Source: Candidatus Thorarchaeota archaeon
GTDB lineage: Archaea > Asgardarchaeota > Thorarchaeia > Thorarchaeales > Thorarchaeaceae
Direction of reading: 5' to 3'
Assembly: GCA_048884965.1 (NCBI GenBank)
Contig: JBHLQH010000002.1
Coordinates: forward strand, 98,239-162,238
Length of the DNA: 64,000 bases
The position numbers and the translations under genes are program-made. Shown piece by piece: positions 28,511 to 33,440 of the stretch. Numbering within the stretch: the stretch's first letter is position 1; each line of letters opens with the position of its first letter. Below the pieces are notes generated by a model. The model was not told the DNA's origin, searched no databases, and worked only from the letters and a program-made list of their open reading frames with translations.

Positions 28511-28727
28511 CACGATTTATTGTGGGGTAAGAGGTATCTGAGTGTTGTGAGATAAGAGGACTTCCTATCTCTCAGCGGGTGCGTGGACTAGTTTTCGAAA
28601 TATTCCCTCAACATTCGAAACTCCCCCTCCTACCTTATGCCCACGAATCCGCCACTATTCATTTTTTGAATTATCTAGGAAACGATAAAAGTGGGTGAGA
28701 TGCTGAATCTTGAGGAGTGGTGTAAGA

Positions 28728-29000
28728 ATGTCAATAACTTGTGAACGATGTGGAACTCCACTTGGTGGAATTATATGTGCCCAATGTGGACGGGTAAGTA
28801 GTACAGCTGGCAGTTGCTCTTATTGCGGATTCTATTTTGCAAGGACACTATGTGCAGATTGTGGGCAAGCTCTAAGTACTACATATAGTGGACCAAGAAG
28901 ATCCTCCGAGATGGACTACGTTTGCCGAAGGGTTGCAATAATCCTGCCAATTGCATTGATCTCACTCATTATTTTATTGATTATACTAGGCGGAATCTGA
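28728..29000 (+). CDS. Multi zinc-ribbon protein with C-terminal TM
   Basis: Four CxxCG motifs followed by a hydrophobic helix. Confidence 0.75.
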   Translation: MSITCERCGTPLGGIICAQCGRVSSTAGSCSYCGFYFARTLCADCGQALSTTYSGPRRSSEMDYVCRRVAIILPIALISLIILLIILGGI

Positions 29001-29128
29001 GAGAGATTTCCAACATAAGAAGCATAGTGATGAGAGCAGTGATTCTATATGAACTTCATAAGCGAATCGCTGGCAACAGTAAACTATGTTCATCAATGTA
29101 CATAGATGGGCATTGATGATTACATGTG

Positions 29129-29142
29129 CGTAAAGTATAAAA
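29129..29142 (+). promoter_or_regulatory. Putative BRE/TATA for RNA element A and trpB2
   Basis: cgtaaa-GTATAAAA about 25 nt upstream of the conserved element start. Confidence 0.5.
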
Positions 29143-29163
29143 GAGGGCTTGAAACGCAAAGGG

Positions 29164-29380
29164 CAACCACCTTCGAGGAATGAAAAACGTGAGATCAGGT
29201 GAATTTGGCCAATGGCATTGGGGTCCAAATGGACCCGTTCAGCTCGTTCTCTATACTGCTCACGTATAGCCCGCGAAGCACTTCCTCACAGCAGCATTTT
29301 GGACTCGGGGGAAACCAAGTCTTCTCTTTCTAGAAATCTGCGTGCAGCTGTCTGTGAGGAGTTTTCCATCGAAGGTGGTA
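29164..29380 (+). ncRNA. Structured RNA element, copy A (trpB2 5' leader); family not recognised
   Basis: Closing stem 29166-29180/29364-29379, inner stem 29281-29291/29352-29361, hairpin 29302-29321; shares sequence blocks with copy B. Confidence 0.7.
29180..29269 (+). CDS. Putative Trp-containing leader peptide (29 aa)
   Basis: MKNVRSGEFGQWHWGPNGPVQLVLYTAHV*, inside element A upstream of trpB2. Confidence 0.35.
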   Translation: MKNVRSGEFGQWHWGPNGPVQLVLYTAHV

Positions 29381-29408
29381 CACCAATTTTGTCTGGAGAA
29401 AAGATACT

Positions 29409-30785
29409 ATGAATAAGAACACAACCAGAATCCTACTGGATATTGAGGATATGCCTCGACAGTACGTGAACATCTTGCCATACCTGCAGGAACCACTTCC
29501 GCCACCAATCAATCCAGCGAACAATGAGCCGTTGCCGCCAGAGGCGCTGGAGATGATATTCGTACGGGAATGTGTACGCCAAGAGGTCTCGGACAAGAAG
29601 CGATTGGACATTCCTGACGAGATCCGAGAAGGATTGATCCGGTATGGAAGACCCTCGCCACTACAGAGAGCAATCGGATTGGAGAGATTCCTCAAGACCC
29701 CAGCTAAGATATACTACAAACGAGAAGATGTGACACCTACGGGGAGTCATAAACTCAACACTGCCCTTGCACAAGCATACTATGCCCAGAAGGAAGGCGT
29801 CGAACGCCTTGCGACTGAGACTGGAGCAGGTCAGTGGGGAAGCGCTGTCGCACTTTCATGTGCTCACTTCGATATCGAGGCCATGATATACATGGTTAGG
29901 GTAAGCTACGAACAGAAGAAGTATCGGGGAACATTGATGCGGTCCTTTGGAGCGAAGGTCGTTCCTAGTCCATCTGATCTGACAGAGTTCGGAAGGAAAC
30001 TCAATGCGGAGAATCCTGATCACCCTGGGACCCTTGGCATCGCTATTAGCGAGGCTCTTGAGGATACGCTATCGAATAATAGTACAAAGTACACCCTTGG
30101 CTCTGTTCTGAATCATGTACTGCTACATCAGTCAATCATCGGACAAGAGGCGATGGCACAGTTCAATAGCATTGATACAAGCCCTGACGTCATCATTGGT
30201 TGCGTAGGGGGAGGAAGCAACTTTGGCGGAACTGTCATACCCTTTATCGCTGATAAGAAGTATCAGGATACGAAATTCATTGCCGCTGAGCCTACAGCAT
30301 GCCCAAGTCTGACGAAGGGAGAGTACTGCTATGACTTTGGTGACACTGCAGGTCTTACACCAAAGGTCAAGATGCACAGTCTTGGTGCGACATTCACTCC
30401 ACCAAAAATCCATGCAGGAGGACTAAGGTATCACGGAGTGGCACCCATCATTAGTGCCTTACTGAATGAAGGCAGAATTAGTGCAAGATCGTTCGAACAA
30501 ACTGACACCCTCAGTGCAGGATTGATCTTCGCTCGTACAGAAGGCATTATCCCAGCACCTGAGTCTGCACATGCACTCAAGGCCGCCATGGATGAAGCAA
30601 TACTGGCTAAGAAGACAAATGAGGAGAAGGTCATTCTCGTTACACTGTCAGGTCACGGTCACTTTGACATGGAAGCATATGCCGCTCTCATGAGTGGCGA
30701 ACTTGGCGAGGTGCCTGCACTAGATGCAATGGAAACCAGTGCCAGCGAGCCCGTAGAAGTCTCTGCAGGAGCGGGACATAAGTGA
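29409..30785 (+). CDS. trpB2: Tryptophan synthase beta chain type 2 (stand-alone TrpB-like PLP enzyme)
   Basis: TGSHKLNTA, ETGAGQWG, GSVLNHV, CVGGGSNF, YDFGD, HAGGLRYHG, LSGHGHFD; no trpA nearby. Confidence 0.93.
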   Translation: MNKNTTRILLDIEDMPRQYVNILPYLQEPLPPPINPANNEPLPPEALEMIFVRECVRQEVSDKKRLDIPDEIREGLIRYGRPSPLQRAIGLERFLKTPAKIYYKREDVTPTGSHKLNTALAQAYYAQKEGVERLATETGAGQWGSAVALSCAHFDIEAMIYMVRVSYEQKKYRGTLMRSFGAKVVPSPSDLTEFGRKLNAENPDHPGTLGIAISEALEDTLSNNSTKYTLGSVLNHVLLHQSIIGQEAMAQFNSIDTSPDVIIGCVGGGSNFGGTVIPFIADKKYQDTKFIAAEPTACPSLTKGEYCYDFGDTAGLTPKVKMHSLGATFTPPKIHAGGLRYHGVAPIISALLNEGRISARSFEQTDTLSAGLIFARTEGIIPAPESAHALKAAMDEAILAKKTNEEKVILVTLSGHGHFDMEAYAALMSGELGEVPALDAMETSASEPVEVSAGAGHK

Positions 30786-30882
30786 AGACAGTTCCTGTAA
30801 TAATTCAAACTCACCGTATATGGCGGGATCCAGACATGAAATGGTGGTAAGAACTACCTTGGTAGGAGGGGGCACACCATCG

Positions 30883-30907
30883 TGTTCAGAAATGTACATT
30901 CTGAACA
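30883..30907. promoter_or_regulatory. Inverted repeat (operator or hairpin) upstream of the element B promoter
   Basis: TGTTCAGAA-atgtaca-TTCTGAACA, perfect 9-bp arms. Confidence 0.45.
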
Positions 30908-30921
30908 AAGAATCCAAGTGG

Positions 30922-30930
30922 CTTATATTA
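30922..30930 (+). promoter_or_regulatory. Putative TATA box for RNA element B
   Basis: CTTATATTA about 25 nt upstream of 30951, the same spacing as copy A. Confidence 0.5.
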
Positions 30931-30949
30931 GAACTGACGTTAATCTATA

Positions 30950-31140
30950 CAACCACCTTCGAGGATGTGAAAGCTCACACAGCGTGCAACATGACCAATG
31001 GTATTCAACTCTTCCGGGATTGTACTAATGGCCCGCGAACTCACTCTTCTCCACCTCAAAGCGAACCGGGGGAAACTGTTCAGGTCGCCATTTCCTAACA
31101 TCCTTGCAGCAAGATGGAGGGGATATCCTTGGAGGTGGTT
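30950..31140 (+). ncRNA. Structured RNA element, copy B (free-standing)
   Basis: 15-bp closing stem 30951-30965/31126-31140 with 2 G-U pairs, inner stem 31045-31053/31115-31123, hairpin 31063-31081. Confidence 0.7.
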
Positions 31141-31167
31141 CTTAACCATTGTCCTCAGCATCAGGCA

Positions 31168-31725
31168 TCAAGGAACATTGGAAGGAGGTTCCTTGACATC
31201 CGCGGCTGGAACCCAAGGGGTTCTCCGAGGGATCCAGCGCGGAACATTCTTTTTGTATTCTAAATACTCCTCACCGAACCGTGCTACCAAACCAGGCTCC
31301 TCGGATTTCATGAAATATAGATGATTTCCTAAAAGGAAGAAAAGGCATAGGATAAGAATGGAGAGCGATGGAAGTACGAGAGACTCTCCAAGAAGGATGA
31401 GAAGAACACCAATAATCATCGGATTGCGGACATGACAATAGATGCCAGATACAACTAGCTTTCGTGTTGGGTGGAGAGGTGAGAGGGTCCCTTCCCCTTC
31501 CTTCGCAAACTTCCCGATCGTGATATAGAGAATAAACAACCCGGTGAAGCATGCAATAGCACCAGCTGGAATTCTGAAGACATCCCATGGGGAAGTCATG
31601 TCAAAAGTGAGAGGCCAGATGAACCACAGATCAGTAGATGCAGTGAGATAAATGAGAAGAGATGGAAAGATTATCGTAACAGTGATTGGAAGCATGAAGG
31701 ATAGTGCATGTTGCTTCTTGCTCAT
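31168..31725 (-). CDS. Isoprenylcysteine carboxyl methyltransferase/PEMT-family membrane protein
   Basis: G.GTLSP..PT.KLVVSGIY..VRNPM, EEP.L..RFGEEY.EY...VPRWIP. Confidence 0.85.
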   Translation of the reverse strand: MSKKQHALSFMLPITVTIIFPSLLIYLTASTDLWFIWPLTFDMTSPWDVFRIPAGAIACFTGLFILYITIGKFAKEGEGTLSPLHPTRKLVVSGIYCHVRNPMIIGVLLILLGESLVLPSLSILILCLFFLLGNHLYFMKSEEPGLVARFGEEYLEYKKNVPRWIPRRTPWVPAADVKEPPSNVP

Positions 31726-31740
31726 GTAGTGAACCTCTTC

Positions 31741-33330
31741 CTAGGAACCTGTGGGAAGGTATCCTTTCTTCACAACGGTATCAACTGGATATGTCCAGAG
31801 GTCTGGGAAGTCGATATTGTAGTGAGCGCCACGACACTCTTTTCGCATTCGAGCCATTTTGATAATCAGCTCTGCGACCAACACGATATTGCGCAACTCC
31901 ACCAAGTCTGCAGTCACCTTGAAATCCCAGTAGAATTGATTGATCTCACGAGCTATGAACTCGATTCTGTTCAGAGCACGAATGAGTCTTTTCTGCGAAC
32001 GTACTATTCCCACATAGTGAGCCATTAGTCTGCGAATCTCATCCCAAGTTGCTGAGATGATCACAAGCTCATCAGCATCTGTTGCCTCGCCAGGGTCCCA
32101 AGATGGAACCTCATTGACTACACGGTCCACTTCTAATTCCTGCATAGCTGATTGTGCAGCATTCCTAGCAAGCACAGCAGTCTCAAGAAGCGAATTTGAT
32201 GCCATCCTATTTGCCCCATGAAATCCAGTACTCGCTGTTTCTCCGATAGCATATAGGCCACGAACGTCAGTCCTTCCATGAGTGTCTACCTTGATGCCGC
32301 CCATGAGATAGTGGGCAGCTGGAACTACTGGTATTGGCTCTTTTGTCATATCGATACCAGCCCTCATACAAGTTGCATAGATGGCTGGAAAGCGTTCCTT
32401 GATATATTCAGAATCTTTGAAAGAGATGTCAAGCCAGACATGATCAGCTCCCGTTCTTTTTAGTTCATGGTCAATGGCTCGAGCAACGACATCACGAGGC
32501 GCCAGTTCAGCATCTGGGTGGTATCTATCCATAAAACGCAAGCCATCAGTTCCAAGAAGTATCGCCCCTTCTCCTCGGAGAGCCTCTGAGATCAGTTCTG
32601 AGCGCACCTTAGGATGATAAAGAAGAGTAGGATGGAACTGCACCATTTCCATGTTCATAACCGTCGCTCCCGCTCTATAGGCCATGGCGATCCCATCACC
32701 TGTAGCAACATCCGGATTAGATGTATAGAGAAATACTCGACCAGCACCGCCTGTCGCAAGAACGGTTACTTTTGCTGCGAAACGTTCGACCTCACCTGTA
32801 TTGATATCTAGAACATGTGCACCTTCGACTTGATTGTTCTTTACGTATAGGTTGACTGCGATATGGTTCTCATAGATCGTGATCTTCTTGGATTCTCTCA
32901 CACGATCTGACAATGCTAATTCGATATCTTTGCCAGTGTGGTCCTTAACGTGCAAAACCCGGCGAGCGCTGTGCCCGCCTTCAAGACCAAGATCATACTC
33001 CCCGCAGGAATCATCGATACAGAATTTCACGCCTGCTTTCTCAAGGTCTGAGATTACTTCTGGGCCAGCTTGAATGAACTCTCGCACTACTTCCTCATGA
33101 CAAAGACCTGCTCCAACTCGAATCGTATCCTGGATATGCTTCTCAAAGGAATCCTCCTGTGATACAACAGCGGCTATTCCTCCTTGGGCGCGATATGTAG
33201 CTGAGTCAGTAAGGGACCTCTTTGTTACAAGATTGACAGTCCCTTTCTCTGCTACCTTAAGGGCAAATAGCTGTCCAGAGAGACCACTCCCTATCACAAG
33301 AAAATCAGAGGTGAAGATTTTGTTTGCCAT
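31741..33330 (-). CDS. nadB: L-aspartate oxidase
   Basis: GSGLSG, AQGGIAAV, EGGHSARR, QFHPT, SEALRGEGA, HGANRMASNSL; start MANK at 33330 has a GGTG SD. Confidence 0.93.
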   Translation of the reverse strand: MANKIFTSDFLVIGSGLSGQLFALKVAEKGTVNLVTKRSLTDSATYRAQGGIAAVVSQEDSFEKHIQDTIRVGAGLCHEEVVREFIQAGPEVISDLEKAGVKFCIDDSCGEYDLGLEGGHSARRVLHVKDHTGKDIELALSDRVRESKKITIYENHIAVNLYVKNNQVEGAHVLDINTGEVERFAAKVTVLATGGAGRVFLYTSNPDVATGDGIAMAYRAGATVMNMEMVQFHPTLLYHPKVRSELISEALRGEGAILLGTDGLRFMDRYHPDAELAPRDVVARAIDHELKRTGADHVWLDISFKDSEYIKERFPAIYATCMRAGIDMTKEPIPVVPAAHYLMGGIKVDTHGRTDVRGLYAIGETASTGFHGANRMASNSLLETAVLARNAAQSAMQELEVDRVVNEVPSWDPGEATDADELVIISATWDEIRRLMAHYVGIVRSQKRLIRALNRIEFIAREINQFYWDFKVTADLVELRNIVLVAELIIKMARMRKECRGAHYNIDFPDLWTYPVDTVVKKGYLPTGS

Positions 33331-33440
33331 GGATTGAACCCACCTGACCAATCTAATTCCAACATATACAGGTTGCGCTAAGTTGCTAGTCGAAAGAGAT
33401 AATCGTTGGAGTGTTCTATGGAAGCTGGGAAGATTTGCAC

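What the first reader, a model, noticed from the sequence alone, without database searches (positions are those of the whole stretch)
29164..31140. Twin ~200-nt structured RNA elements with covarying stems flank trpB2: candidate new archaeal RNA regulator
Seen: two diverged, same-strand copies, A (29164-29380) and B (30950-31140). They share an identical 5' 16-mer CAACCACCTTCGAGGA and then, in the same order, CCAATGGyATT (same 30-nt spacing), TCArCTC, GCCCGCGAA, CGGGGGAAAC, TTTC, TGCAGC and a 3' AGGTGGT. Both fold alike using different sequences. Closing stem: A ACCACCTTCGA-GGAA/TTCC-a-TCGAAGGTGGT; B 15 bp with two G-U pairs, which favours a + strand RNA. Inner stem: A TCCTCACAG/CTGTGAGGA; B TCTTCTCCA/TGGAGGGGA. 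Hairpin around GGGGGAAAC: A GACT/AGTC; B GAAC/GTTC. A has one extra hairpin (GGGTCCA/TGGACCC). Each copy has a TATA-like box about 25 nt upstream. A ends 29 nt before the trpB2 ATG, whereas B has no downstream sense gene. Conserved CCCG/CGGG or GGAAA/TTTC pairings could form a pseudoknot. Inference: a riboswitch- or attenuator-like leader with a free-standing paralog (decoy or sRNA), or a ribozyme. I recognise no known family.
Basis: partly seen in the sequence, partly recalled or inferred. Interest (0 to 1): 0.9.

Follow-up and report, generated by a model that had tools for sequence, protein, structure and literature searches.

The report
Duplicated tryptophan-sensing trpB2 leader RNA
The upstream copy is a folded RNA leader, kept across a whole family of Asgard (Thor) archaea in front of their only detected tryptophan-making gene, and it carries a tiny reading frame with a tryptophan codon, so the ribosome most likely gauges tryptophan supply there, a control known from bacteria that I found no report of in archaea; the downstream copy is a duplicate seen in this genome only, of unknown use.

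Summary
There are two same-strand copies with an identical 16-nt 5' end, a long closing stem and an inner stem. Neither matches Rfam, and the genome has only these two copies, so this is not a MITE.

Copy A is one member of a conserved 5' leader of trpB2. It occurs in about 50 Thorarchaeaceae genomes, always directly before trpB2, and was not found in 125 other Asgard genomes. Four helices (P1, P2a, P2b, P3) covary.

The leader is not purely non-coding. A 13-29-codon uORF (mostly 16-18) holds a near-invariant Trp codon (48 of 49). That codon overlaps the AUG of a second frame, which stays open for 44-103 codons and stops within 20 nt of the trpB2 start in 42 of 49 leaders. That frame's peptide is not conserved.

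The genome lacks trpA and trpC, so trpB2 is its only detected trp gene.

Best reading: a ribosome-read Trp sensor embedded in an RNA fold, behind a promoter with TGTACA boxes. How pausing at UGG turns trpB2 on is inferred, not shown.

Copy B is a roughly 290-nt duplicate of promoter plus leader, found only in this genome. It keeps P1, P3 and the promoter boxes but has lost the hairpin and the uORF's AUG. Its role is unknown.

Earlier notes of this scan report the same class of leader on other DNA.

The parts
29086..29143 (+). Promoter of copy A. Four ATGnnCA boxes in 10-bp phase (ATGTTCA 29086, ATGTACA 29096, ATGGGCA 29106, ATGATTACA 29116), then the TATA box TATAAAAG at 29136-29143. The inferred transcription start is about 29165.
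   Evidence: Read. The same box array precedes the TATA box in all Thorarchaeaceae trpB2 promoters examined and precedes Methanobacterium trpB2. The start site is inferred from TATA spacing and was not mapped.
29166..29180 (+). P1 5' strand of A (ACCACCTTCGAGGAA). It begins at the inferred 5' end of the transcript and contains the SD-like GAGGA of the short uORF.
   Evidence: Pairs listed. P1 is present with different sequences in all lineages. Cognate duplexes average -20.7 kcal/mol against -13.1 for non-cognate ones, matched by 0 of 20000 permutations.
29180..29269 (+). uORF-W of A: 29 codons plus stop, reading MKNVRSGEFGQWHW... Its Trp codons are at 29213-29215 and 29219-29221.
   Evidence: A short in-frame uORF through the UGG occurs in 49 of 49 leaders (46 start with AUG, 3 with GUG). 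It has 1-3 Trp codons, and the stop lies 27 nt after the UGG in 37 of 49.
29187..29265 (+). P2a of A (ACGTGAG 29187-29193 with CTCACGT 29259-29265). It encloses the conserved junction and P2b.
   Evidence: On the core alignment A7, P2a and P2b together are 77% paired against 32-47% for slid registers, and 0 of 500 shuffles reach the observed value.
29209..29215 (+). Core motif CCAATGG, invariant in 47 of 49 leaders. It reads C-CAA-UGG (Gln-Trp) in the short frame and CCA-AUG-G in the long frame.
   Evidence: The only variants are the two leaders of genome G019, CCACUGU and CCACUGG.
29212..29412 (+). Long overlapping frame (frame a) of A: 66 codons. Its TGA stop overlaps the trpB2 ATG (ATGA).
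   Evidence: The frame is open 44-103 codons in 49 of 49 leaders and stops within -20 to +20 nt of the trpB2 start in 42 of 49. The other two frames carry 3.4 and 3.2 stops on average. There is no codon-position periodicity.
29221..29236 (+). P2b hairpin of A (GGGTCC AAAT GGACCC). It starts 5 nt after the UGG.
   Evidence: It covaries: GCGUCC/GGACGC, GGCUCC/GGAGCC, and a 9-bp GGUCCUUCU/AGAAGGACC form. It starts at the same offset in 36 of 45 leaders. U-G pairs occur in 16 sequences, which fits a + strand RNA.
29283..29360 (+). P3 domain of A. The inner stem is TCCTCACAG 29283-29291 with CTGTGAGGA 29352-29360. It encloses a hairpin with the G-rich loop CGGGGGAAAC.
   Evidence: For P3, cognate duplexes average -15.8 kcal/mol against -11.9 for non-cognate ones, matched by 0 of 20000 permutations. 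Five P3 pairs show changes on both sides within the majority group.
29363..29379 (+). P1 3' strand of A (TTCCATCGAAGGTGGT). It ends 29 nt before the trpB2 ATG and lies inside frame a.
29409..30785 (+). trpB2 (458 aa), a TrpB-like PLP enzyme.
   Evidence: NCBIfam NF009057 scores 658.7 bits against a cut-off of 366, and TIGR01415 scores 612 against 518.85. Pfam finds PALP.
30883..30930 (+). Promoter of copy B. The palindrome TGTTCAGAA-ATGTACA-TTCTGAACA lies at 30883-30907 and the TATA box TTATATTA at 30923-30930. The inferred start is about 30951.
   Evidence: Read. The start site was not mapped.
30950..31141 (+). Copy B. P1 is 30950-30969 with 31122-31141. CCAATGG is at 30995-31001. P3 is 31045-31053 with 31115-31123. 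There is no P2b hairpin, no AUG for the short uORF (only GUG), and AA replaces the invariant AG of GUUYAG.
   Evidence: B is closest to A in both halves of the element. Model R2 finds it in G000 only, among 41 family genomes.
30998..31324 (+). Frame a of copy B: 108 codons open. It runs past the element and antisense into the 3' end of the convergent PEMT-like gene (31168-31725, - strand).

Best explanation
Copy A is the 5' leader of the trpB2 mRNA and works as a ribosome-read tryptophan sensor set in an RNA fold.

Shown:
- The leader folds as a three-way junction. P1 pairs the 5' end of the transcript with a stretch about 30 nt before the trpB2 start. P2a encloses a conserved junction and the P2b hairpin. 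P3 closes a variable domain.
- It holds a short uORF (uORF-W) with a Trp codon that is invariant in 48 of 49 leaders; the exception keeps a Trp codon two codons later.
- It holds a second frame (frame a) whose AUG overlaps that Trp codon and which stays open up to the trpB2 start.

Inferred:
- The promoter's TGTACA boxes give Trp-dependent repression of transcription.
- When charged tRNA-Trp is short, the ribosome pauses with UGG in its A site, with the P2b hairpin at the mRNA entry 5 nt downstream.
- The paused ribosome then continues in frame a, either by slipping back one base or by restarting on the overlapping AUG. It melts P3 and the 3' strand of P1 and hands over to trpB2 by termination-reinitiation.
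- With ample Trp it stays in the short frame and stops, mostly 9 codons later (37 of 49 leaders). The leader then closes: P1 covers the uORF-W ribosome-binding site and P2a covers the SD-like stretch before frame a. trpB2 is then translated poorly.

Copy B is a duplicate of promoter plus leader made in this lineage. It is kept as a structured RNA, but it no longer serves a gene.

The confidence given (0.6) is for the general claim that A is a ribosome-read Trp-sensing leader and B its duplicate. The frame-switch step alone I hold at about 0.3.
For: Distribution:
- Model R1 finds one copy per genome in 45 of 87 genomes of the order.
- In the phylum sample, 13 of 26 genomes of the same family match and 0 of 125 genomes of other Asgard families do.
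- Every locus with enough downstream DNA has trpB2 right after the element.
- Family members without a match either lack trpB2 or carry a divergent leader that the model missed.

Structure:
- The core alignment is 77% paired against 32-47% for slid registers, with 0 of 500 shuffles as good.
- The majority group is 80.5% paired against 35-44% slid, with 15 pairs changed on both sides.
- Across 13 lineages, cognate P1, P3 and P2a strands pair better than non-cognate ones (0, 0 and 14 of 20000 permutations).
- The minus strand scores far lower (22 against 213 bits).

Reading frames (49 unique leaders):
- uORF-W starts with AUG in 46 and GUG in 3, 21-33 nt before the UGG, and has 1-3 Trp codons.
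- Frame a is open 44-103 codons and stops within -20 to +20 nt of the trpB2 start in 42 of 49. Eleven of these are ATGA overlaps.
- The other two frames have 3.4 and 3.2 stops on average.
- Frame a shows no third-position periodicity, so openness is selected and the peptide is not.

Layout around the pause site:
- SD-like complementarity precedes all three starts (-6.6, -6.1 and -4.9 kcal/mol, against -2.4 for background).
- The spacer from UGG to P2b is fixed at 5 nt in 36 of 45 leaders.
- In the folded leader the two uORF starts are less accessible (0.31 and 0.35 unpaired) than the trpB2 start (0.55).

Physiology:
- No TrpA and no IGPS were found in a 95.7% complete genome, while all 14 control genomes matched. 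trpB2 is therefore the only trp gene detected.

Promoter:
- TGTACA arrays occur in all leaders examined, in B, and in Methanobacterium. TrpY and its TRP boxes are the one known archaeal trp regulator (PMC6737238).

Precedents (Atkins et al. 2016, PMC5009743):
- Hungry-codon frameshifting.
- Ketolide-induced frameshifting in ermCL, which opens ermC.

Copy B:
- It is nearest to A.
- It sits in a gap that is only about 80 nt long in same-genus genomes.
- Substitutions in its P1 and P3 keep the pairing.
Against: - No transcript, start site or ribosome data could be obtained.
- The sign of the switch is not derivable from sequence. A ribosome paused at UGG sits on the frame-a AUG, so ordinary initiation there would be blocked by starvation.
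- The would-be slip site is poor. C-CAA to CCA-A re-pairs only 2 of 3 positions, and it is not an X-XXY-YYZ heptamer.
- The review read says a slow A-site codon matters more for +1 than for -1 shifts.
- The two G019 leaders lack the AUG (CUG instead) and have CAC-UGG or CAU-UGG, which re-pair worse still. Frame a is nevertheless open there. A UUG overlapping the next UGG could serve as a start.
- Most leaders have a single Trp codon (37 of 49), a weaker gauge than the tandem Trp codons of bacterial trpL.
- trpB2 has its own SD-like GGAG, and its accessibility does not change when the uORF-W footprint is forced open (8 leaders). Dependence on coupling is therefore inferred only from where frame a stops.
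- The invariant junction nucleotides (CCAAUGG, the AG of GUUYAG, CCAUAU) could equally form a binding pocket.
- The TGTACA consensus for TrpY is from memory, and no TrpY homologue was sought here.
Confidence: 0.6

Rival explanations
1. Riboswitch-like sensor. The conserved junction closed by P2a (UUGGCCAAUGGC, GUUYAG, CCAUAU) binds free Trp, tRNA-Trp or a protein. Binding stabilises P2a and P2b and hides the SD-like stretch and the AUG of frame a. Frame a is the expression platform, coupled to trpB2. The short uORF is secondary or serves only to unfold the RNA.
For: - Long single-stranded junction strands are nearly invariant between covarying helices.
- The AG of GUUYAG is invariant even where UAG becomes CAG, so it is not kept merely as a stop codon.
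- The frame-a AUG has SD-like complementarity that lies within P2a.
- The AUG region is only 0.35 unpaired in the folded leader.
Against: - The in-frame AUG or GUG 21-33 nt before the UGG is kept through indels of 3 nt in every lineage. A pure aptamer would not require that.
- CAA-UGG is read as Gln-Trp in all but one leader.
- No known aptamer class matches.
- Ligand binding cannot be tested with these tools.
Confidence: 0.18
2. Double-negative uORF logic. Frame a is initiated normally at its AUG and is inhibitory, because its ribosomes end on and occlude the trpB2 ribosome-binding site. A ribosome starved at the overlapping UGG blocks that AUG, which relieves the occlusion, and trpB2 is then translated from its own SD.
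For: - The AUG is kept in 47 of 49 leaders, with an SD-like stretch upstream.
- trpB2 has its own GGAG, and its start is the most accessible of the three (0.55).
- Frame a often overlaps the trpB2 start out of frame (stops at +4 to +38 in 22 leaders, +116 in 2).
Against: - Stops at or just before a start codon, including 11 ATGA overlaps, normally promote reinitiation in prokaryote-type translation. This rests on established knowledge of translational coupling.
- In the folded leader frame a would be poorly initiated anyway, so there would be little repression to relieve.
Confidence: 0.14
3. Classical transcription attenuation as in E. coli trpL. Ribosome position on the leader peptide selects between a terminator and an antiterminator fold.
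For: A Trp-codon leader ORF lies inside alternative-capable RNA structure upstream of a trp gene.
Against: - No T-run of 5 or more is conserved anywhere in the leaders.
- No conserved mutually exclusive pairing was found.
- This model does not explain why frame a is kept open to the trpB2 start.
- Rfam Trp_leader does not match.
Confidence: 0.05
4. The two copies are a mobile element (a MITE with terminal inverted repeats), or direct repeats left by insertion of a trpB2 cassette.
For: The ends of each copy are inverted repeats of about 15 nt, and the two copies flank one gene in direct orientation.
Against: - The genome has only two copies.
- Other genomes have one copy, always before trpB2 and in conserved synteny with the upstream 235-aa gene.
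- The 'inverted repeat' covaries as an RNA helix, with G-U pairs on the + strand only.
Confidence: 0.01
5. Copy B is a decaying relic of a tandem duplication and has no function.
For: - B lost P2b, the AUG of uORF-W and the invariant AG.
- It has no downstream sense gene.
- It is absent from all other genomes searched.
Against: - P1 is the strongest in the set (-29.6 kcal/mol), and both substitutions in its 3' strand give G-U pairs.
- P3 keeps 9 pairs through three double changes.
- The promoter boxes and the TATA box are intact.
- Frame a is still open through the element, although B has diverged from A much more than A has from its G004 orthologue.
Confidence: 0.3

Closest known systems
Enterobacterial trp operon leader (trpL; Rfam RF00513 Trp_leader)
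   Same: A short leader ORF with Trp codon(s) sits inside structured RNA, directly upstream of a tryptophan biosynthesis gene. The ribosome presumably reads charged tRNA-Trp supply there.
   Different: - There is no match to the Rfam model.
- There is no terminator hairpin with a U tract.
- Most leaders have one Trp codon, not two in tandem.
- A second long frame overlaps the Trp codon and runs to the gene start.
- The fold is a three-way junction closed by pairing of the 5' end.
- The host is an archaeon.
ermCL leader with ketolide-induced regulatory frameshifting (as reviewed in PMC5009743)
   Same: In the leading model, a ribosome in a leader uORF changes frame, translates on through structured RNA towards the main gene, and so permits its initiation.
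   Different: - The trigger here would be a hungry Trp codon, not a drug.
- The alternative frame here is kept open for about 60 codons and ends on the start codon.
- No frameshift has been shown here.
dnaX-type -1 programmed frameshift signal (internal SD, slippery heptamer, downstream hairpin; recalled from established literature)
   Same: The layout has three parts: an SD-like stretch 8-10 nt upstream, the shift site, then a 5-nt spacer and a GC-rich hairpin. A trans-frame ORF follows.
   Different: C-CAA-UGG is not a slippery X-XXY-YYZ heptamer, because re-pairing fails at the middle position. The product would be a non-conserved peptide whose translation, not its sequence, matters.
Mycobacterial poly-Cys leaderless uORF attenuators (bioRxiv 10.1101/834739)
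   Same: These are translational (not terminator-based) amino-acid-responsive control by cognate codons in a short uORF upstream of biosynthetic genes.
   Different: - Those uORFs are leaderless and rich in the cognate codon.
- They have no overlapping second frame.
- They have no junction closed by 5'-end pairing.
- They are bacterial.
Sinorhizobium rnTrpL, an sRNA derived from the trp attenuator (PMC7968998)
   Same: This is a precedent for a trp leader RNA that has a life of its own in trans. It is the kind of role that the free-standing copy B could have.
   Different: rnTrpL is the released attenuator of the same locus, not a separate duplicated copy with its own promoter. No target of B is known.
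TrpY and TRP-box repression in Methanothermobacter (named in PMC6737238)
   Same: TGTACA-type boxes lie next to the TATA box of trp genes, including trpB2 of Methanobacterium loci fetched here.
   Different: This concerns the promoter layer only. The Thorarchaeal regulator was not identified, and the box consensus is from memory.

Membership tests
Rfam Trp_leader (RF00513) and any other Rfam family | Score at or above the family's gathering threshold | tested here: not met
   There were 0 matches in the window. The only hit in the region at E up to 10 was a chance ToxI match at 17 bits. There were 0 matches in 8 orthologous loci.
Leader-peptide attenuator (bacterial trpL type) | A short ORF with codons for the regulated amino acid, upstream of the biosynthetic gene | tested here: met
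   49 of 49 leaders have a 13-29-codon ORF with 1-3 Trp codons before trpB2.
Leader-peptide attenuator (bacterial trpL type) | An intrinsic terminator (hairpin plus U tract) with a competing antiterminator | tested here: not met
   No T-run of 5 or more is conserved in the leaders. Forcing open the ribosome footprint does not change downstream accessibility.
Riboswitch | An aptamer that binds a small ligand and changes the expression platform | not testable with these tools
   Conserved junction strands lie between covarying helices. No known aptamer class matches.
T-box leader | A specifier loop, the T-box sequence and an antiterminator, detected by the Rfam T-box model | tested here: not met
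   There is no Rfam match at the gathering threshold or at E up to 10.
-1 programmed ribosomal frameshift site | A slippery heptamer X-XXY-YYZ that lets the tRNAs re-pair in the -1 frame | tested here: not met
   The site is C-CAA-UGG. tRNA-Gln would re-pair with CCA at 2 of 3 positions. The G019 variants CAC-UGG and CAU-UGG re-pair worse.
-1 programmed ribosomal frameshift site | A stimulatory structure 5-9 nt downstream, and an open -1 frame | tested here: met
   P2b starts 5 nt after the UGG in 36 of 45 leaders and covaries. The -1 frame is open 44-103 codons in 49 of 49.
Translationally coupled ORF pair | The upstream ORF's stop lies at or near the downstream start codon | tested here: met
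   Frame a stops within -20 to +20 nt of the trpB2 start in 42 of 49 leaders, including 11 ATGA overlaps. Coupling itself has not been shown.
MITE or other mobile repeat | Many dispersed copies with terminal inverted repeats and target-site duplications | tested here: not met
   This genome has two copies and other genomes have one per trpB2 gene (two in G019 and G085, which carry two trpB2), always before trpB2.
Self-cleaving ribozyme | A match to a known ribozyme fold, or cleavage activity | tested here: not met
   No Rfam ribozyme family matches. Activity cannot be tested here.

The most novel reading that the evidence does not exclude
The leader is a natural starvation-triggered frame switch. 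A ribosome waiting for Trp-tRNA at the invariant UGG is held by the hairpin 5 nt downstream. It leaves the short frame for the overlapping one, either by a -1 slip or by restarting on the AUG it is sitting on. It then translates about 60 codons of meaningless but stop-free sequence through the RNA fold and delivers itself to the trpB2 start. That would make it an amino-acid sensor that works by recoding, in the archaeal lineage closest to eukaryotes. The review read states that no natural example of productive hungry-codon frameshifting is known.
Probability: 0.3. Interest if true: 0.92.

Novelty: new variant of a known kind. Interest (0 to 1): 0.78.

Why it matters
- A 2019 paper on archaeal trp regulation says that little is known about how archaea regulate Trp biosynthesis, apart from the repressor TrpY (PMC6737238). 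My literature searches found ribosome-mediated amino-acid sensing described only for bacteria.
- This is a family-wide, covariation-supported leader in Asgard archaea that combines an RNA fold with two conserved overlapping reading frames at a Trp codon.
- If confirmed, it shows that leader-ORF sensing exists in archaea. It would do so with an architecture different from the bacterial terminator switch: a long stop-free relay frame that ends on the gene's start.
- It gives a compact, mutable test system, because three single-codon changes separate the rival mechanisms.
- It bears on annotation. Gene callers will either miss these frames or call the 44-103-codon relay frame a hypothetical protein.
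- Copy B offers a natural case of a leader set free from its gene.

Tried and rejected
- MITE: rejected. BLAST and two covariance models find two copies in this genome and otherwise one per trpB2 gene.
- Known RNA family: none found at the gathering threshold or at E up to 10.
- B orthologue in the sister genome G004: the 28-nt BLAST hit (L035) lies inside a coding gene and is spurious.
- Intrinsic-terminator attenuation: no conserved T-runs.
- ermC-style unmasking of the trpB2 ribosome-binding site by a stalled ribosome: accessibility was unchanged in constrained folds. The script stopped after 8 leaders.
- An outer helix pairing the trpB2 SD with sequence upstream of P1: that sequence lies between the TATA box and the inferred start, so it is probably not transcribed.
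- TnaC-like arrest peptide sensing free Trp: the C-terminal half and the stop position of uORF-W vary between lineages, so only the codons Gln-Trp are kept.
- Frame a as a conserved small protein: there is no third-position periodicity and no alignable peptide beyond the part encoded by P2b.
- Genome-wide search for further TGTACA-array promoters: a strict pattern found nothing convincing and did not even recover A and B, so it was uninformative.
- RNAalifold on plain MAFFT alignments recovered only P2b. The helices had to be set by hand and tested with counts and cross-pairing.
- A 16S rRNA 3' end was not found in the assembly. The canonical archaeal anti-SD was used instead.


Full report
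**1. The observation**

Copies A (29164-29380) and B (30950-31140) are real and lie on the + strand.
- They share an identical 16-mer at the 5' end. It occurs twice exactly, and only 4 sites match with up to 3 mismatches, against 0.51 expected.
- Both close with a 15-bp helix between their two ends. B differs from A there by two changes to G-U and one A-U to U-A swap.
- The inner stem differs at five positions, and three of them are double compensatory changes.
- A folds much better than shuffled sequence (z -4.58). B does so less clearly (z -2.37).
- No Rfam family matches.
- BLAST of the whole 4.09-Mb assembly finds no further copy, so the MITE reading fails.

**2. Copy A is a family-wide trpB2 leader**

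The downstream gene is a TrpB-like PLP enzyme, trpB2 (NCBIfam NF009057, 658.7 bits). Record titles of its closest relatives name Thorarchaeota.
- BLAST and two covariance models find the element in one copy per genome.
- R1 matches 45 of 87 genomes of the order.
- In a phylum-wide sample, 13 of 26 genomes of the same family match and 0 of 125 genomes of other Asgard families do.
- Every locus with enough downstream sequence has trpB2 directly after it.
- Three family members without a match lack trpB2. Two others have trpB2 with a divergent leader that R1 missed. R2 adds genera g10 and g13.
- It is absent upstream of trpB2 in Lokiarchaeia-type, Bathyarchaeia and Methanobacterium loci.
- G019 and G085 carry two trpB2 genes, each with its own leader.

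**3. The fold**

All lineages share four helices, with different sequences.
- P1 pairs the first nucleotides after the inferred transcription start with a stretch ending about 20-30 nt before the trpB2 start. Examples are ACCACCUUCGAGGAA in A, CCCAUAGAGUGUGGC in L029, AACCGUUUCUGAGUGUGGA in the majority group and AACCCUUUCC in the L109 group, each with its own complement.
- P2a encloses a conserved junction and the P2b hairpin. P2b reads GGGUCC/GGACCC, GCGUCC/GGACGC, GGCUCC/GGAGCC, or a 9-bp form.

Counts support these helices.
- On the core alignment, 77.1% of cells pair against 32-47% in slid registers, and the covariation score is 0.274 against at most 0.12. No shuffle of 500 does as well.
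- In the majority group, 80.5% pair against 35-44% slid, and 15 pairs change on both sides. That alignment is fitted to the model, so it leans towards the structure.
- Across 13 lineage representatives, cognate strands pair better than non-cognate ones. P1 gives -20.7 against -13.1 kcal/mol, with 0 of 20000 permutations as good. P3 gives 0 of 20000 and P2a gives 14 of 20000.
- G-U pairs (16 U-G in P2b alone) and a tenfold lower score on the minus strand place the RNA on the + strand.

**4. The leader is read by ribosomes, or at least built to be**

The conserved core CCAAUGG has two readings.

In one frame it is C-CAA-UGG, the Gln-Trp of a short uORF (uORF-W).
- The uORF starts with AUG in 46 leaders and GUG in 3, 21-33 nt upstream of the UGG.
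- It is 13-29 codons long, mostly 16-18, and has 1-3 Trp codons.
- The stop lies 27 nt after the UGG in 37 of 49.
- In A it spans 29180-29269 and reads ...GQWHW...
- Only Gln-Trp is kept at the peptide level. The C-terminal half follows the P2b hairpin, and the stop position varies. This argues for codon sensing, not a TnaC-like arrest peptide.

In the -1 frame the same letters are CCA-AUG-G. This frame (frame a; A: 29212-29412) has these properties.
- It is open for 44-103 codons in 49 of 49 leaders.
- It stops within -20 to +20 nt of the trpB2 start in 42 of 49. Eleven of these are ATGA overlaps.
- The other two frames carry 3.4 and 3.2 stops on average over the same span.
- Its phase relative to trpB2 varies, and its sequence shows no third-position periodicity.
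- Selection therefore keeps the frame open and ending at trpB2, not its peptide. That is the signature of a relay or coupling frame.

**5. Context**

- The genome is 95.7% complete and has no TrpA and no IGPS, whereas all 14 control genomes matched. trpB2 is thus the only trp gene detected, probably for indole salvage. Control by Trp supply makes sense for it.
- Both promoters, and all orthologous ones, carry TGTACA-type boxes in 10-bp phase next to the TATA box.
- Methanobacterium trpB2 loci carry such boxes too. They recall the TRP boxes of TrpY, the only archaeal trp regulator described (PMC6737238). The box consensus is from my memory.
- There are therefore probably two layers of control: a repressor on the DNA and a ribosome-read leader on the RNA.

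**6. Mechanism: what is shown and what is inferred**

Shown:
- The fold.
- The two frames and their geometry.
- SD-like complementarity before all three starts (-6.6, -6.1 and -4.9 kcal/mol against a background of -2.4).
- A fixed 5-nt spacer between the UGG and P2b (36 of 45 leaders).
- Lower accessibility of the two uORF starts (0.31 and 0.35) than of the trpB2 start (0.55) in the folded leader.
- No conserved U tract.
- No change in trpB2 site accessibility when the uORF-W footprint is opened.

Inferred:
- P1 covers the SD and start of uORF-W, and its 3' strand is made about 190 nt later. uORF-W can therefore be read mainly during transcription, or after frame-a ribosomes have melted P1.
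- A ribosome starved at UGG sits exactly on the frame-a AUG. Plain initiation there would be blocked by starvation, which is the wrong sign for a biosynthetic gene.
- The reading that gives the right sign with ordinary prokaryote-type coupling is that the paused ribosome itself moves into frame a and runs to trpB2.
- The layout fits this reading: an SD-like stretch, the site, a 5-nt spacer and a GC hairpin.
- There are precedents in hungry-codon frameshifting and in the ketolide-induced frameshift of ermCL that opens ermC (PMC5009743).

Weak points:
- C-CAA re-pairs with CCA at only two of three positions.
- The two G019 leaders have lost the AUG (CUG) and have CAC-UGG or CAU-UGG, yet they keep frame a open. 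A UUG overlapping the next UGG could serve as a start.
- I therefore hold the general claim (a ribosome-read Trp-sensing leader) at about 0.6 and the frame-switch step at about 0.3.
- The rivals are a ligand- or tRNA-binding junction that gates the frame-a AUG, an inhibitory frame a relieved by the stall, and, least likely, classical termination.

**7. Copy B**

B is closest to A in both halves of the element.
- It lies between trpB2 and a convergent PEMT-like gene, in a gap of 382 nt. The same gap is about 80 nt in same-genus genomes.
- Model R2, built from A, B and the G004 leader, finds two copies only in this genome among 41 family genomes.
- B is therefore a duplicate of promoter plus leader, about 290 nt long, made in this lineage.
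- It has lost the P2b hairpin, the AUG of uORF-W (a GUG remains) and the invariant AG.
- It keeps the promoter boxes (now a 9-7-9 palindrome at 30883-30907), the TATA box, the strongest P1 of the set, P3 through compensatory changes, and an open frame a of 108 codons that runs antisense into the PEMT gene.
- That pattern favours a retained structured RNA (about 0.6) over free decay (about 0.3).
- A trans-acting role, as for the Sinorhizobium attenuator sRNA rnTrpL (PMC7968998), antisense interference with PEMT, or an operator decoy are all possible and untested.
- No terminator signal separates trpB2 from B, so read-through mRNAs could also pair A's 5' strand with B's 3' strand. This is speculation.

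**8. Comparison and novelty**

- Functionally the nearest thing is the bacterial trp leader. The element fails membership, because it has no Rfam match and no terminator.
- It shares features with -1 frameshift signals but lacks a slippery heptamer.
- Searches of the paper library found leader-peptide sensing described only in bacteria.
- Earlier AI notes of this scan describe the same class before trpB2 in other Asgard genomes, including Thorarchaeota, and some propose the frame switch. I used them as leads only.
- The overlap of the two frames, the statistics and the G019 counter-examples were worked out here on this family.
- I rate it a new variant of a known kind, namely ribosome-read amino-acid-sensing leaders. 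The frame-switch reading, if true, would be categorically new.

Noticed in passing
window 29086-29143 and 30883-30930; loci L028-L125 upstream regions; L049, L053: Arrays of 2-4 TGTACA-like boxes in roughly 10-bp phase abut the TATA box of every Thorarchaeaceae trpB2 promoter examined, of copy B (as a 9-7-9 palindrome), and of Methanobacterium trpB2. This suggests a TrpY-like repressor site shared across distant archaea.
   Followed up: partly
whole genome G000: No TrpA (PF00290) and no IGPS (PF00218) were found in a 95.7% complete assembly, while all 14 control genomes matched. trpB2 seems to be the only trp gene, which points to Trp auxotrophy with indole salvage.
   Followed up: partly
L122 (G019:C6 about 22280) and L137 (G019:C6 about 11470): One genome has two trpB2 genes. 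Both leaders have lost the AUG of the long frame (CCACUGU, CCACUGG), yet they keep that frame open to the trpB2 start and keep a UUG overlapping the next Trp codon. This is a natural test case for the mechanism.
   Followed up: partly
L036 (G004) 2255-2300: A 1-nt insertion puts the upstream AUG into the long frame. This creates a 7-codon mini-uORF that ends ...Trp-stop (AAC UGG UGA), 9 nt before the long frame's AUG. The usual short frame is still enterable from a GUG.
   Followed up: no
window 28710-29000 (+): A 96-aa ORF with a weak double-zinc-ribbon match (below the Pfam cut-off) lies between the conserved upstream 235-aa gene and the A promoter. tblastn finds it in none of the relatives' loci, so it may be lineage-specific or not a gene.
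   Followed up: no
window 29269-29320 and 31033-31075; L036: GCCCGCGAA and CGGGGGAAAC are shared by A and B, with variant forms (CCAGCGAA, ACGGGGGAAC) in the G004 leader. CGGGGGAAAC lies in different reading frames in A and B, so its conservation is at the RNA level; GCCCGCGAA is read in the same frame in both. A loop-to-junction CCCG/CGGG pseudoknot is possible but untestable with three sequences.
   Followed up: partly
window 31168-31725 (-) and 31741-33351 (-): The genes convergent with copy B are a PEMT/ICMT-like methyltransferase and a 536-aa FAD flavoprotein of the aspartate oxidase / fumarate reductase type. B's open frame and any read-through transcript run antisense into the first of them.
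   Followed up: no
G085 (L095 and L114): A second genome also has two trpB2 genes, each behind its own leader of a different subtype. This could be a true paralogue pair or a mixed bin.
   Followed up: no
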